A stretch of DNA of 64,000 bases. It comes from Lingula anatina (Eukaryota > Animalia > Brachiopoda). The notes beneath the pieces were generated by a model. That model was not told the origin of the DNA. It searched no databases and worked only from the letters and a program-made list of their open reading frames with translations. Shown in pieces: positions 1-21,400 of the stretch (positions are counted from its first letter, which is position 1; every line of letters begins with the position of its first letter). The position numbers were made by a program, and so were the translations under genes. The DNA lies in NCBI GenBank assembly GCA_051362555.1, contig CM120647.1:11322651-11386650 (forward strand). The letters run 5' to 3'.

Positions 1-467
1 ATATATTATATTGTATTATAATACCCCTGTCACTACATCTCTACTAACAGGCTGTAGATTGGCTAATTTAGGAAAGTCTCTCTTCCAGTTGTATATATTA
101 TATTGTATTATAATACCCCTGTCACTACATCTCTACTTACAGGCTGTAGATTGGCTAATTTAGGAAAGTCTCTCTCCCAGTTGTATATATTATACTGTAT
201 TATAATATCCCTGTCACTAACTGTCTACTTACAGGTTGTAGATTGGCTACTTTGGGAAACAGTCTCTCTCTCAGTTGTATAATATTATATTATATTATAA
301 TACCCCTGTCACAAACTCTCTACTTACAGGTTGTAGATTGGCTACTTTAGGGAACAGTCTCTCTCTCAGTTGTATATATTATATTGTATTATAATATCCC
401 TGTCACTAACTCTCTACTTACAGGTTGTAGATTGGCTACTTTAGGGAACAGTCTCTCTCCCAGTTGT
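1..467. repeat. 92-95 bp tandem repeat made of the last ~46 nt of UBR5 exon 422-660 plus its 5' splice site; at least 5 units, running off the window edge
   Basis: Unit ~cagttgtatatattatattgtattataatacccctgtcact..tctctacttac|aggttgtagattggctactttagggaacagtctctct. Minus-strand donor GT dinucleotides at 420-421 (true), 326-327, 231-232, 139-140 and 47-48. Confidence 0.93.
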
Positions 468-3400
468 CTCCTGTGAGCAGAGAAGTGGTCAGTGTCGGTG
501 GTGCTATCTTGGGTGCCGCCATCTGTTGGCAGGTAGAATGGAGGTGCATCATAATTCAGTGCTCGTCTGGCTTCCCGGCTGCGCTGGCGACTGAGGTTCC
601 GTAGACGTTCTCTCTCACGTTCTCTTTCTCGTTCTCTTGATCGAAGCCTCTGCATCAGATCTAAGAGAAATAAGTTGATTAGTTGTGGATGCTACTGACC
701 TTCCTGCCAATTTGAAGTAGCCCATAAAACTTGAACAATATTTAACTATCAGGAGGCAGATTAAACCATTTGCCTGGTTACAATAACTAAAACAAAGCAC
801 AAACTTACTATACTGCATGCCCTTTGTTCCAACAAGACACCCCTCCAGACTCGGCAATTTCTCACTAGATGTCACCGCCTGTGCGAAAGCCGTGTAAAAA
901 CTCCTGGCGACCCCAGAGCCCTCTCCCGGCTCATCTTTAAATGCCACTTTAATTCTATGTACGGCCAGCGGCTGCTCCGTCCCTGTCTTCCTGTTGTAGT
1001 GAGTGTTTAGCTGCTTCACTGTCTGCTGTATCAGGCTGTTACGATCTCGCTCAACCTGACACAAAAAAAAACATCTCTCTTTATGTATTACAATAGCATA
1101 ATTTATTTTAAGTAAAAACCACTTACAAGACAAGTTGTATGCACCAGTGTAATTATTCCTGCATATCGGAGATAATTACAATCAAGAATATCACAGACGG
1201 TGAACACTTGGTCGGTAACCTTGATAGTCACACAGCTTGTATTTAGATCAATAAGATAATTTTCATACTTGTAGAGAGAAATTACTGTTGCATTGAAAAC
1301 TCATGGTTCCTTAGTTAAAAGAGGAATAAAATAAAAAAAAGAACACTAAATGATATATACATATAAAAACAATAAACAAACAGAAAACTTTTCACTGACC
1401 TCTAGAGATAAATCCCTCTGCTGGGAATTCCTCAATTTCTCCATATCTCTCCTAAACCTGCTCTCCTTTACTGGGAATCCACCAAGTTCACTGATCACTG
1501 ACCCTGGCTCTGCGCCCACGTCATCGCAGAACACGCGCCCAAACAGGTCCAGGGTGAGCCGCCATCTTCCCAGCAGGATGTCATGTGACACCATCTGGCC
1601 TAATGTGTTCTGGGTTCTGAAATCGTGCAACAGTTGATGTCAAATATTCACAATAATATCTAAACCATTAGATATCACAAAAATAGACAGAAAACTTGAT
1701 GCAAAATGTAAAATAATAATAATAATAAATAATAAGAATTATTTTAAAATGGTAATCAGATCTTTTGTATTCACAGTCACTTCTTGCCTGCATGGTTGTC
1801 TTAAAGTGTTAGCTCTATTAAACTGTGCATCAAATGGAAGTAAAACCATCTTACCAAAATTGTATGAGAGAATGTTTACTATAAGTAAATGTAAATTCTA
1901 CCTGGCAGTGCTTATATTAGGCTGTACACTGGAAGTCTCTACAACAACAGTGTTGGACACGTTTTCATTAGCACCCACTAGATCCACTGTGGTGTCTGAC
2001 TGCAGAGAGCTGGATGGCAAGGGAACAGAGCTGAAACAACAACAACAACAATAATAATAATAATAATAATAATAATAATAATAATAATAATAACAAAAGG
2101 GTCATTCCATGTCCATTTAGCAACTCATTTTGTGTAATATTTGCTTATCACTTTTTAATTACTGTGGATTTCTTTTTATATAGAATATATTGCAGAGGAA
2201 GTAATGGCACAAGTCAGCATTATACAAATATTTCAGGTAATGTAAATGACACAAGGGACAATTTTTGTAGAATGGCCCAATATCAACATCCAGCTGAAGA
2301 GTTGGACTCAAACTTATGTTTAATGCCATCACAACAAAGATGTATCTTACCTCTCGCTGACAGAAGAACCTGGTTCTCCTGAACTCGAGGTGGCAGACTG
2401 GCTGGCACTGGTTCCGCCACTGAGGCTTGAGGTGCTAAAGCTTTGACTAGCGCTGACCTCTCCTGTCATCCTCCCAATGCTACCAGCACCACCTCCTCCA
2501 CCAGGGGGCAGCAGAGAGGTCTGACTGGAGCCAGCGTGGACGATGACACTCGGTTGAGAGACGGGGCTAGATTGGGAGAGGAGGGGTGGAATTGATCCCC
2601 TCTCAGTGGCGCCACCTTTCTTAGACAAGTCCTGGGGGACAGACTGAATGTCATGCAGGAGAGCTCCCAGTGACATGGAAGGTGCCGCCCCACTGCTGGT
2701 AGAACCACCATGCTGTGAGGGCGCCACTGGTGCCAAGCTGGGCCGTACGATCACACTGGTGCTGGATGAGGCCCCTCCTGCCACGCCCCCTGCCATGGAC
2801 TCTGTACTGGCTGTACTGGGTCCTGCAGAACATGGCGGTACTTCAGACGCCATATTGGTGTGTGATGGCGCCACCAGCTGGGAGGACTTGGTGTCAGCAG
2901 CACAGCGTGTTGACAGAGACAGGTGGGTGGGAAGTCTGGAACACGACAACGTGTGGGGGCTGTTAGAACAAAGGTCTGGTTATCATAACAGACAGCCTGG
3001 CTTTGAAACAAAAATCTTTGTACATTTCATATCACAGCAGTAATAAATCTGGTTAAATCACTGGATCCATCATCTGTGAATGAAAAGACAGTGACTCTGC
3101 AGAAATATCTCATGCCTGATAAAAGAACTTTCACCAGAAATTTGGTTTTCATCTGTAGACAAAAATTCCAGCCTACGTTGACCAAAGATAAATTATTAGT
3201 AAAAGCAATAGTAGTCATAAGTTGTTACTTTAGAAATCAGGATTCCCTACAATTACTCACCTGTCAAAGGGACTCTGCATGGCTGCATCTCCATTTCCAC
3301 CATACCCCATCTGATTGGTTGAGAAGGGTTGCCTAGGGTTACCAAACAGCTCCTCGCGGCGTGAGTTAGGCTGCAGCAGGTGCGGAATATCTGCCATCGG

Positions 3401-18400: not shown

Positions 18401-21400
18401 CTGTCCACTGTCTGGCACCATCACCTTCTTGGGGACCTTCTGGAAACAGTCTGGGATCCTGGGGGCATTGCTGCCCTTGATCACCTGAAACATATACATA
18501 TATGCCTATACACAAAGACCTACACATTTATACCTTTACATATATACCTATATCTATCTACACACAATCTGAAAGCAATCTGGTATTGGAGGGGGGGGGG
18601 GGGGGGGGTATCGCTGCCCTTGATTACCTGCAACATGGACATATATATATTTACCTTAACACATATACATGTACCTAAGACTATCTTTACTATCTCTACC
18701 ATAAACTGTCTAATAGTTTCCCCCAGCCCCCTACCCTAAAAATACACAAAAATGCAGAGTTCCTACCATAAACATCTAATAGTTGCCCCCTCCCCTGCCT
18801 CTCCACCCCCAGAATATACACAAAATCCCCAAGTTCCTAACTTAAACAACAATCCTACAGCTGTTCCATCTGCCCCCTCCCCCCCCCCCCAAACACCTGC
18901 TCAACCTGAGTTCTTATCTTTATAATAATAATAATAATAATAATTTATTGTCATATTTATACAAATATAAAATGAAAATTGGTATGATCTGTCGATAAAA
19001 TGTGATACAGTGGAATTATTAAAATACATTTTGTTCATTAAAAATACGTACTGCTGATGGATAAAAACTATTCTTAGTGCGCGTGGAGGTTGCTTTTAAT
19101 GACCGCAGTCGGCTTGTTGACATATGCATAAGTAGGCTATTCGCTGGGTGACCAGGGTCACTCGTGATTGACTTTACTTTCTTGAGCACTCGTCTCGTAT
19201 ACAAACATTCAATAGACGGCAGGTCCCTACCTACAATGCGCCTGGCAGTTTTTACTACGCGATTGAGGCGATTCTTGTCCTCTACTGTAGCACTACTGTA
19301 CCAGACGGTGAAAGATTGTGTTAACACACTCTCAATCACAGCCTGGTAAAATTTTGCCAGCAGTTCTTGGTTGACATAGAATGACCTCAATCGTCGTAGA
19401 AAGTAGAGTCTTTGCTGATCTTTGCGGACAATATCATCTATGTTAATGTGCCATTTAAGATCATCAGATATATGTATGCCAAGAAATTTGAAATGTCTGA
19501 CTATTTCAACCTCAGAACCATTTAACAGTCAAATAGTCCCCCCTCTGCATCCCCCCACCTTCAACATATCCAAAAACCCCTACCATCAACTCATCCTTCC
19601 TCATCAGTCTACAATCCTGTAGCAGCACTGCCGAATCGTCCTTGGTCTCTCCCTCCTTGTTGTTGAACTTCACCGCCACGTACACGCCGTCCACCTTCAG
19701 GACGCGCCCCATGGGCACTGTCTTGACATCTTCCACGAAGCTGACATCCTTCAATGCCCACTCTTCCTCATCGTTCTTGTTCTCTATTAGTTCTTTCACT
19801 GGGGTTTGCTGCTTCTTGCGCTCTGTGGAGAGAGATGTTTAGAAGTTAACAGGTTGATGTACGCGTCTAAGCATGCTAAAATGTGTGTACACGGAAGTAC
19901 ATGGAAGGCTTTGTTCCATCACAACAATGTCTAAAATATCTCTTACTAATTGTTTACACGTTTTAAAACAGATTCCTGCTGTTTATTATGTCCTGGTTAC
20001 ACAACTGATTTGGATTAGCATTCTTAATGCAAAATTTTCAGTAAGATGCATCCACCATGAATGCTGCCATCGAGTTCAGACAGCTGTATCACCAAAACAT
20101 ACACTTTGTATAAGGCAAGGTATTTAATTATGCACGTGCCTGCATGTACGTGTGCCTGCCTGCATGCAACTATATGTTAGTTTTAATAAAATGTGTATGT
20201 GAGTAAGATCAAGCTTATGGTAGTTGCACTCAGAGTCCAAGATAACAGTTAGGGTTTTGTGTGTGCCTGTATGCATGTGTTCGTGTAAGTCTTACGTAGA
20301 GTCAGAGATACCAGTTTGTGTTAGGTTATGCCTGTATGTGCATGCATGTGCGTGTGTGCCCAAGCATGTGTTACTTGGTCTTACTGAGAGTGCCAGGGCT
20401 CCGTAAGGTGGGTCCGCTCTGATCACTGCATGTCGAGGAGGCTGGAGATGGGGGTGGTGGCATGTCAGGTTTACTCTCACATGACATACTCTTACTCTCC
20501 TGTCTCAGCTCAACTCTTGGCTCACTGAAACACAACCAAAATGCACAATAGGCATACATTTCACCAATATAATGTGAGACTAAACCGAGTAATTGCCATA
20601 ACAAAATACGCTAAGACATCATGAAACTTTATAAAACTGACCAGTGCCTTGTGAGAACAAAGATTATATCAAGTCAAAGTCTACAGCTTTGTGAACACGG
20701 CCTCTTACCTGACAATAGTTTACATCAAGTCTAAGATTACACAGTCTTAGTTTACAGTTTTGTGAACACAGCCTCTTACCTGACAATGGTTTTGATCTTA
20801 AATCTGCAGCTATCATTGAGAGTCCAAGCACTCTCCATCAGCTGACCGACCTTGGGTACCCCACCCACCGTGGTGAAGGCCAACGCACCAGTGTGGTACA
20901 TGGGACAGCTGCGCAGACAGACCTGGAATAGTACAGTTGACATGGGTGAACGACGGACTGGAATACAGGGGGCACATGTTAATCCTGATTTGTATTGTGG
21001 ATGTTGTGCTGGAGATGTTAGAATATTTACATGATTGATTCATTTTTACCCCCCTTCCTTCCTCTTTCAAACACACACTCTCACTGTAACAAACCTCTCT
21101 CTCTCTCTCTCTCTCTCCAAACCCCCCTCTCTCTCTCTCTCTTTCTCTCTCTCTTGTTTTTACCATAAGGTTCCTTTACATCATCTCTCAGTTTTATCTA
21201 GTGTCATATTAGTAAATTTTCAATTCATTTATCTGCCCCCCCCCCCCCCACACCCCCAAATCTCTCTCCTACCTGACTTCCACACAGTATGTCAGAGGCT
21301 GTGGATGCACTGTGCTTGGATTTCTTGGTCTTGGCTCTTGCTTTCTCGATCAGTTTCTTTCTTTGGCCGAAAGGCATCACTCCCCTTCAAACAACAAGTA

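What the first reader, a model, noticed from the sequence alone, without database searches (positions are those of the whole stretch)
1..20800. Systematic tandem duplication of UBR5 exon-intron junctions ('splice-site echoes')
Seen: at least 7 UBR5 junctions have copies of [exon edge + splice site + adjacent intron] repeated into the intron. They are the donor at 422 (5 or more units), acceptor at 8592 (~8), donor at 9577 (2), acceptor at 9842 (64), donor at 17905 (2-3), acceptor at 18484 (2) and donor at 20780 (2-3). Divergence ranges from near-identical to heavily decayed, so this happened repeatedly. The copy contiguous with the exon body is always the one giving the conserved protein. I saw no such copies at the NIT-GC or ELH junctions. 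Inference: a mutational process centred on splice junctions of a housekeeping/germline-transcribed gene (e.g. transcription- or splicing-coupled breaks repaired with slippage), tolerated because exon definition picks the proximal site. Duplicating AG|GT-containing segments is also a classical proposed route to intron gain. I do not know whether this has been described for this lineage.
Basis: partly seen in the sequence, partly recalled or inferred. Interest (0 to 1): 0.85.

Follow-up and report, generated by a model that had tools for sequence, protein, structure and literature searches.

The report
Splice-junction "mirage" repeats in brachiopod gene
About one in ten exon edges of a lamp-shell (Lingula) UBR5 gene has been copied head to tail into the neighbouring intron, once 64 times; this repeat type is already known from lancelets as a "mirage", it is likely harmless, and it probably forms at exon edges somewhat more often than chance.

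Summary
In a 43-exon UBR5 model (one open frame, 2,531 aa), 8 of 85 junctions have a nearby copy scoring above all 170 null draws: the seven claimed plus donor 16566. Two more decayed cases are likely. The copies at 8592 lack the AG and the copy at 9577 lacks the GT. DNA of other individuals shows the repeats are real and vary in length. RNA used the exon-contiguous site at the three junctions that could be examined. The organism is Lingula (98% protein hit). The class is known: amphioxus "mirage" minisatellites and human F7/CBS/LMNB2 repeats. This scan has noted it before in other genomes (24 findings, at least 10 genomes). Excess at junctions is about 2.6-fold within the gene (10 of 13 duplications, 3.8 expected, P = 4e-4), but weakens to P = 0.016-0.16 under a two-fold detection bias, for which there is evidence. 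The contrast with the neighbouring genes (0 of 17 junctions) is not significant, so the transcription-coupled, germline-gene reading is unsupported. Best reading: microhomology-seeded local duplications, filtered by selection and sometimes amplified. No report for brachiopods was found. Interest modest.

The parts
422..29215 (-). UBR5 (EDD/hyd) gene, 43 coding exons in the window; the 3' end (HECT) lies beyond base 1
   Evidence: Open frame of 2,531 aa, all 42 introns GT-AG; five introns and acceptor 9842 seen in RNA
1..467 (-). Donor 422 array: 92-95 bp unit (46 exon + 46-49 intron letters), 5 units in the window; all 4 copies keep GT (3 GTAAGT, 1 GTTAGT)
   Evidence: read-through of the intron part meets a stop after 10 codons
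8586..8901 (-). Array abutting acceptor 8592: about 8 units of 39 bp, each ending in the 7 letters that begin the exon; no copy keeps the AG
   Evidence: shorter or different in runs X4 and X10
9484..9599 (-). Donor 9577 duplication, 58 bp, 2 copies; the copy has lost GT
   Evidence: an X4 contig spans 9249-9600 with 0 differences
9813..13582 (-). Acceptor 9842 array: 59-bp unit (29 intron + 30 exon letters), 64 units, 98% matches, AG in 64 of 64; lies in the intron that splits the cysteine-rich box (UBR-box label recalled)
   Evidence: very high summed depth in X4; use of a copy gives a stop at codon 1225 in 4 of 4 copies tested
16464..16614 (-).
   Evidence: score 30; -94 copy beats 500 of 500 shuffles
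17708..17930 (-). Donor 17905 duplication, 105 bp, 2 copies flanked by about 10 letters of microhomology; the copy keeps GT, and its use would add 35 codons without a stop
   Evidence: use in RNA untested
18436..18700 (-). Acceptor 18484 duplication, about 130-143 bp, decayed, 48 exon letters; the copy keeps AG
18695..19590 (-). Probable decayed copies (2-3 units of about 70 bp, 18695-18850) of donor 19584, separated from it by a retroelement 3' fragment
   Evidence: targeted alignments beat 300 of 300 and 500 of 500 shuffles; did not pass the scan
18940..19530 (-). 3' fragment of a LINE-type retroelement, about 170 open codons
   Evidence: six-frame translation; PF09004, E 4.9e-13; the LINE reading of this family is recalled
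20194..20396 (-). Probable decayed copies of donor 20385 (at -89, and a weaker one beyond)
   Evidence: first copy beats 500 of 500 shuffles, second 498 of 500; did not pass the scan
20655..20792 (-). Donor 20780 duplication, 71 bp, 2 copies, 13 exon letters; the copy keeps GTAAGA

Best explanation
These are tandem copies of exon-intron edges ('mirage' minisatellites) that likely arose as ordinary local duplications primed by short matching sequences, were likely kept because splicing still uses the site next to the exon body, and in a few cases were probably amplified by unequal exchange. Shown: the copies, their spread of ages, their length variation between individuals, and use of the exon-contiguous site at 8592, 9577 and 9842. 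Inferred: (1) seeding by microhomology during slippage or break repair; (2) a filter: duplications inside an exon or of a whole exon are purged, whereas edge copies end up inside the intron, and rare mis-splicing would mostly be destroyed through premature stops; (3) edge copies stay recognisable longer because the exon template is held fixed by selection; (4) a modest real excess of duplications at exon edges remains after these effects, of unknown cause. No function is needed.
For: Class match to the passages read in PMC3087553 and PMC3902484. Microhomology at array ends, read by eye: CAGTAG/CAGAAG at the 59-mer, AGAGCTTCATAT/AGAGCTATAT at the 105-mer, TGTACAG at the 39-mer. In run X10 one contig of depth 208.8 (neighbours 22-40) begins at 8525, where the exon reads TGTCCAG, with 9 loose letters like the end of the intron unit: probably a different, longer array at the same acceptor, set off by the same short match. 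Length variation: X4 skips 173 and X10 skips 270 letters of the 39-mer array; the 59-mer bin has summed depth 19,624 in X4 (single copy 69-89) and 86 in X10 (single copy about 40). Interior 59-mers are homogenised (30 of 64 identical), the two end units unique. RNA run X12: 17 reads join 8592-9103, 14 join 9226-9577, 34 loose ends at 9842 carry the previous exon; no joint to a copy is listed. Slower decay: 15 of 195 mismatches in exon parts against 60 of 321 in intron parts of 7 pairs (7.7% vs 18.7%). Intron-only duplications occur in the same gene and outside it. Only 1 tested copy that keeps its dinucleotide (17905) would give an open frame.
Against: Microhomology was not tested against a null and is unclear at the 31-, 58-, 71- and 143-bp cases. 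All 7 strongest duplications in the gene touch a junction (2.2 expected; P = 2e-4, and 0.004 with a two-fold bias), more than filter and detection alone predict, so step 4 is needed and its cause is open. Only 9842 is a true test of decoy use, since the copies at 8592 and 9577 lack the dinucleotide; only 2 of 63 copies were in the stretch laid; X12 shows depth 4.5 over these copies, which I ascribe to its G allele at 9827 matching the copies but could not resolve read by read; X15 had almost no depth. The exon/intron mismatch contrast is inflated because exon parts end where the match ends.
Confidence: 0.62

Rival explanations
1. Homology-cliff recombination: in a very polymorphic species, alleles match in exons but not in the indel-rich introns, so repair from the other chromosome that starts in an exon stalls at its edge, re-anneals by microhomology and leaves a duplication across the junction.
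For: X10 contigs align over exons but skip 81-261 letters of unalignable intron; Lingula heterozygosity 1.6% (PMC4595640, passage); most 59-mer copies carry G where the window's exon has A at 9827, and G is the allele of all 4 runs laid; at 9577 the exon part matches 23 of 23 but the intron part 23 of 32; the class is reported from amphioxus and, in unchecked scan notes, urchins and annelids.
Against: No copy was shown to derive from another allele; humans, with low polymorphism, also have such repeats (PMC1557585); the mismatch contrast (2.4-fold) is close to the 2-fold expected from selection on the exon alone.
Confidence: 0.17
2. One reading: transcription- or splicing-coupled breaks at junctions of a germline-transcribed gene, repaired with slippage.
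For: 8-10 of 85 junctions in UBR5, 0 of 17 in three neighbours; excess over uniform placement; intron-only duplication density in UBR5 (3 with units of 25 bp or more in 15.6 kb of collapsed intron) is like that outside (about 5 in 30.5 kb, my count).
Against: 0 of 17 has probability 0.12-0.19 at the UBR5 rate; germline expression was not measured; breakpoints lie 5-68 letters from the junction, not at it; nothing here links the events to transcription.
Confidence: 0.1
3. No bias at all: placement is uniform and the pattern is selection, detection bias and the choice of a striking window.
For: Per position, 8 of 85 junctions against 48 of 822 intron positions, P = 0.14; 8 of 13 events with a two-fold bias, P = 0.16, three-fold P = 0.40; one gene, picked because it looked unusual; event lists made by hand after seeing the data.
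Against: 19 of those 48 hits lie in decayed junction copies; without them 29 of 796, P = 0.02; window-wide 9 of 18 events against 1.9-2.4 expected, P = 0.003-0.012 even with a two-fold bias. This rival shares most steps with the best explanation and differs only in step 4.
Confidence: 0.07
4. The copies are functional: recursive splicing through the AG|GT in each 59-mer, or regulated unproductive splicing that tunes UBR5 levels.
For: AG kept in 64 of 64 units, each followed by GT; the 17905 copy would give an in-frame 35-residue insert; human 6-16 and CBS use some pseudo-sites (PMC1557585).
Against: The units are 98% alike everywhere, so keeping AG needs no selection; GTTAAA is a poor donor; copy number differs widely between runs; two arrays have lost the dinucleotide; no joint to a copy.
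Confidence: 0.03
5. Assembly artefact.
For: The exact count of 64 comes from one assembly; no long read was seen.
Against: Copies differ from each other by up to a third of letters; an X4 contig from another study spans the 9577 duplication with 0 differences; X4 depth at the 59-mer is over 200 times single copy.
Confidence: 0.01

Closest known systems
Amphioxus 'mirage' minisatellites (Adh3, globins BflGb6 and BflGb9, troponin C, PGBD5). Seen: passages of PMC3087553 and PMC3902484; the original Adh3 paper (Canestro et al. 2002) was not held and is cited through them.
   Same: Unit spans the exon-intron boundary, at donors and acceptors; units 10-160 bp there, 31-143 bp here; many but not all copies keep AG/GT; copy number differs between haplotypes; interior units homogenised, end units not; normal splicing; proposed as a route to intron gain.
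   Different: Another phylum (Brachiopoda); 8-10 cases in one gene; one array of 64 acceptor copies (2-7 units in the globin and PGBD5 cases read); somatic instability untested here; enrichment is estimated here, whereas those passages give no test.
Human boundary-spanning VNTRs: F7 intron 7 (37 bp), CBS intron 13, 6-16, lamin B2, PDGF. Seen: abstract and passages of PMC1557585.
   Same: First unit spans the boundary; later units give pseudo-sites; in F7, lamin B2 and PDGF only the authentic site is used.
   Different: Single donor arrays in separate genes; 6-16 and CBS use two pseudo-sites; here both donors and acceptors, many per gene.
[quoted passage not shown] Seen: abstract and passages of PMC4974935.
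   Same: Duplication of a piece that holds splice signals; in potato, of an intron-exon structure.
   Different: There a new intron results; here the copies fall into existing introns and no gained intron was shown.

Membership tests
Mirage minisatellites | Tandem repeat whose unit spans an exon-intron boundary | tested here: met
   8 of 85 junctions above the null, alignments; the 8592 array is borderline (7 exon letters shared, the 5 letters at the AG differ)
Mirage minisatellites | Copies duplicate the splice signal (many, not all) | tested here: met
   Kept at 422, 9842, 16566, 17905, 18484, 20780 and the probable 19584 and 20385; lost at 8592 and 9577
Mirage minisatellites | Unit of minisatellite size (10-160 bp in the passages read) | tested here: met
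   31, 39, 58, 59, 71, 92, 105, about 143 bp
Mirage minisatellites | Length differs between haplotypes or individuals | tested here: met
   Skips of 173 (X4) and 270 (X10) in the 39-mer array; 59-mer depth 19,624 vs 86; only three arrays could be examined
Mirage minisatellites | Concerted evolution of interior units, end units excluded | tested here: met
   30 of 64 59-mers identical; units 0 and 63 are unique
Mirage minisatellites | Normal splicing is not disturbed | tested here: inconclusive
   Exon-contiguous sites used by 17, 14 and 34 reads in X12, no joint to a copy listed; 3 of 10 sites examined, one with intact decoys, polyA RNA in which products with premature stops would be depleted
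Mirage minisatellites | Somatic instability (shown for Adh3) | not testable with these tools
   Needs small-pool PCR or long reads from tissues of one animal
Intron gain by tandem duplication | A new intron absent from orthologues, with the duplicated source identified | not tested
   No orthologous gene structures were available; all copies lie in introns of the model
Recursive splicing | Intronic AG|GT sites used stepwise, seen in nascent RNA | not testable with these tools
   AG|GT is present in 64 of 64 units; the RNA laid was not nascent RNA and covered two copies

The most novel reading that the evidence does not exclude
Exon edges are mutational hot spots for tandem duplication in highly polymorphic animals: allelic homology ends at the exon edge, repair stalls there and re-primes on short matches, so the same junction spawns different arrays in different haplotypes (as the X10 data suggest at acceptor 8592). 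About one junction in ten of a long gene would then carry a mirage, making this a general, unquantified engine of intron growth, exon-edge gene conversion and occasional intron gain across lancelets, urchins, annelids and brachiopods.
Probability: 0.25. Interest if true: 0.65.

Novelty: new member of a known kind. Interest (0 to 1): 0.32.

Why it matters
As one gene it is a dense, clean example of a repeat class known since 2002. It extends the class to brachiopods and gives a natural test bed for splice-site choice: 63 upstream acceptor copies that appear to be passed over. It matters for annotation, since copies can be mistaken for exons. If a genome-wide test confirms a real excess at exon edges, it would make the origin of mirages, called unclear in PMC3087553, directly testable with public haplotype data.

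Tried and rejected
No whole genome was held, so the genome-wide test could not be run. The original mirage paper was not held under three identifiers. RNA and DNA could be laid only on 7000-9965, so the copies at 422, 16566, 17905, 18484, 19584, 20385 and 20780 are untested in RNA and in other individuals. No RNA holder was listed by word search; RNA runs came by species label. Run X15 had too little depth (1 read on each of two joints). The first exon model was out of frame until an exon at 27903-27976 was added. A first guess that the organism was a gastropod (limited to proteins up to 2,000 aa) was replaced by Lingula. Acceptor 25134 (score 33, shuffles up to 31) and acceptor 9226 (71-bp repeat starting 19 letters into the intron) were considered as further cases and counted as intron-only. 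The donor-422 branch of the script printed nothing; one search replaced it. Eight paper searches found no genome-wide test of enrichment and no report for Lingula; the main texts of two Lingula genome papers searched by term (PMC4595640, PMC13121700) do not hold 'minisatellite'; their supplements were not read and could bear on this. Scan look-ups for this genome and for Lingula returned nothing.
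Full report
The gene and the organism. The window holds the 5' part of UBR5 on the minus strand. 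A hand-built model of 43 exons from 29215 to 422 has GT-AG at all 42 introns and one frame of 2,531 codons without a stop. It aligns with proteins named UBR5, EDD1 or hyd. RNA run X12 confirms five introns between 7146 and 9577 and the acceptor at 9842. The neighbouring single-exon dehydrogenase is 98% identical to a Lingula anatina protein, the next hit being 61%, so the animal is a lingulid brachiopod. The other neighbours are a NIT-domain guanylate cyclase and an ELH-family precursor. Exons are 55% G+C, introns 35%; median intron 328 bases.

The observation. Each of the 85 junctions was tested for a copy within 1,200 bases that matches on both sides of the junction. Eight scored 30-141; the best of 170 null draws scored 26. 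These are the seven claimed plus donor 16566. Targeted alignments add two probable decayed cases that did not pass that scan: donor 20385 and donor 19584, whose copies are cut off from the junction by a retroelement fragment. An unbiased ungapped self-comparison of the window found 10 local duplications with score 20 or more (shuffles reached 14); 7 lie in UBR5 and 3 outside. All 7 are the claimed cases; the 8592 array was not flagged as crossing the junction, though it was. Not every copy is a spare splice site: at 8592 no copy keeps the AG, and at 9577 the copy has TT for GT. At 9842 all 64 units keep AG.

Real, and variable. Contigs of two DNA runs from studies other than that of the best holder were laid on 7000-9965. 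An X4 contig spans the 9577 duplication with no difference. X4 has a haplotype 173 letters shorter in the 39-mer array; an X10 contig skips 270 letters of it. Summed depth over two 59-mer copies is 19,624 in X4 against 69-89 for single-copy DNA, and 86 in X10 against about 40; summed depth is not a copy number, but the array exists elsewhere and differs greatly in size. In both runs the unique contig ends exactly at 9842, which is what a shared duplication breakpoint at 9813 would give with 31-letter words (inference). X10 also has one contig of depth 208.8 from 8525, where the exon reads TGTCCAG, preceded by 9 letters like the end of the intron unit. I read this as a different array of about 98 bp at the same acceptor, with the AG inside; it rests on one contig seen only in summary tables.

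Splicing. X12 has 17 reads joining 8592 to 9103, 14 joining 9226 to 9577, and 34 loose ends at 9842 that read the previous exon, at a depth of 39 just inside the exon. No joint to a copy is listed (threshold 3 reads; 69 loose-end rows were not shown). Depth 4.5 over the two copies is probably short exon ends carrying the G allele that matches the copies, but this was not resolved. Only 9842 has intact decoys among the three sites examined. Use of almost any copy would give an early stop, so such RNA would likely be degraded and under-counted. The exception is the copy of donor 17905, which would add 35 codons; it is untested.

More than chance? Under uniform placement on the collapsed gene, leaving out exon-internal and whole-exon events, a 60-bp unit crosses a junction about one time in four. 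Ten of 13 duplications with units of 25 bp or more do so, against 3.8 expected (P = 4e-4); counting the two decayed cases as intronic gives 8 of 13 (P = 0.014); adding seven small intron-only units gives 10 of 20 against 4.1 (P = 0.001). Junction copies stay visible longer: mismatches are 7.7% in exon parts and 18.7% in intron parts. With a two-fold bias the three P values become 0.016, 0.16 and 0.041; with three-fold 0.075, 0.40 and 0.17. Window-wide, 9 of 18 events against 1.9-2.4 expected gives P = 0.003-0.012 with the two-fold bias; the least favourable count tried (8 of 21) gives 0.03-0.09. Per position, 8 of 85 junctions compare with 48 of 822 intron positions (P = 0.14), or 29 of 796 after removing 19 hits in decayed junction copies (P = 0.02); outside UBR5 86 of 1,527. 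Neighbouring positions are not independent, the event lists were made by hand, and the window was chosen because it looked odd. An excess is likely, not established. The lack of copies at 17 junctions of the neighbours is not significant (P = 0.35).

How it likely works. A short match on either side of an exon edge lets slippage or break repair copy the piece in between: CAGTAG/CAGAAG for the 59-mer, about 10 letters for the 105-mer, TGTACAG/TGTCCAG at 8592 (by eye, no null). The copy lands in the intron and is tolerated because the site next to the exon body is used; for donors this agrees with the oriented scanning shown for human F7 (PMC1557585), for acceptors exon definition is my inference. 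Two copies can grow into an array by unequal exchange, with homogenised interior units. Five interior units share the window's exon variant at 9827, which suggests exchange between exon and array. What makes exon edges favoured, if they are, is open. I rank a homology cliff between divergent alleles above transcription-coupled breaks, because X10 introns are largely unalignable while exons are not, but neither was tested.

What is known. This is the 'mirage' class, named in amphioxus Adh3 and described in globins, troponin C and PGBD5 (passages of PMC3087553 and PMC3902484), with human parallels (PMC1557585). Those passages already state normal splicing, length instability, an unclear origin and the intron-gain idea. 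Five of seven defining features are met here, one is inconclusive, one untestable. The scan's own notes list 24 findings with these words in at least 10 genomes (unchecked). Eight paper searches and term searches of two Lingula genome papers found no report for brachiopods and no genome-wide enrichment test.

Verdict. A real and dense example of a known class in a new phylum, with a likely but unproven excess at exon edges. Interest 0.32.

Noticed in passing
window 7834-7965: High-copy interspersed element in UBR5 intron 29, with inverted ends CACTGA...TCAGTG; summed DNA depth about 7,000 in X4 and 2,800 in X10, and reads in both RNA runs from other copies. Looks like a small non-autonomous DNA transposon.
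   Followed up: partly
window 18940-19530: 3' fragment of a LINE-type element with about 170 open codons (PF09004 hit), inserted between donor 19584 and its decayed copies, so it is likely younger than they are.
   Followed up: partly
window 30338-31357: Zinc-type dehydrogenase with an intronless coding region, head to head with UBR5 (about 1.1 kb between starts); 98% to a Lingula protein, 53-58% to Mytilus, Owenia and Capitella, and about 50% to many algal and some bacterial proteins.
   Followed up: partly
window 47440-47661 and 48276-48497: 222-bp direct duplication, 99% identical, 836 bases apart, inside a guanylate cyclase intron; not at a junction.
   Followed up: no
window 52111-52432: Intergenic minisatellite, 21 bp x 15, 79% matches.
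   Followed up: no
window 9827: The window's exon has A where all four runs laid and most array units have G (synonymous); five array units share the A, hinting at exchange between the coding exon edge and the array.
   Followed up: partly
window 9245-9331: Decayed intron-only repeat 71 bases apart near acceptor 9226; an X10 contig shows a further tandem copy here (goes back 50 with 24 letters between).
   Followed up: partly
window 7000-9965, run X10: X10 carries the same species label but holds only 0.08 of the words and has largely unalignable introns; it may be a divergent population or cryptic species.
   Followed up: no
window 27300-27360: Short stretch in intron 3 flanked by acceptor- and donor-like sequence on the minus strand; possible alternative exon, seen by eye only.
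   Followed up: no
window 60071-61488: ELH-family neuropeptide precursor on the minus strand (PF02323), three coding exons.
   Followed up: no
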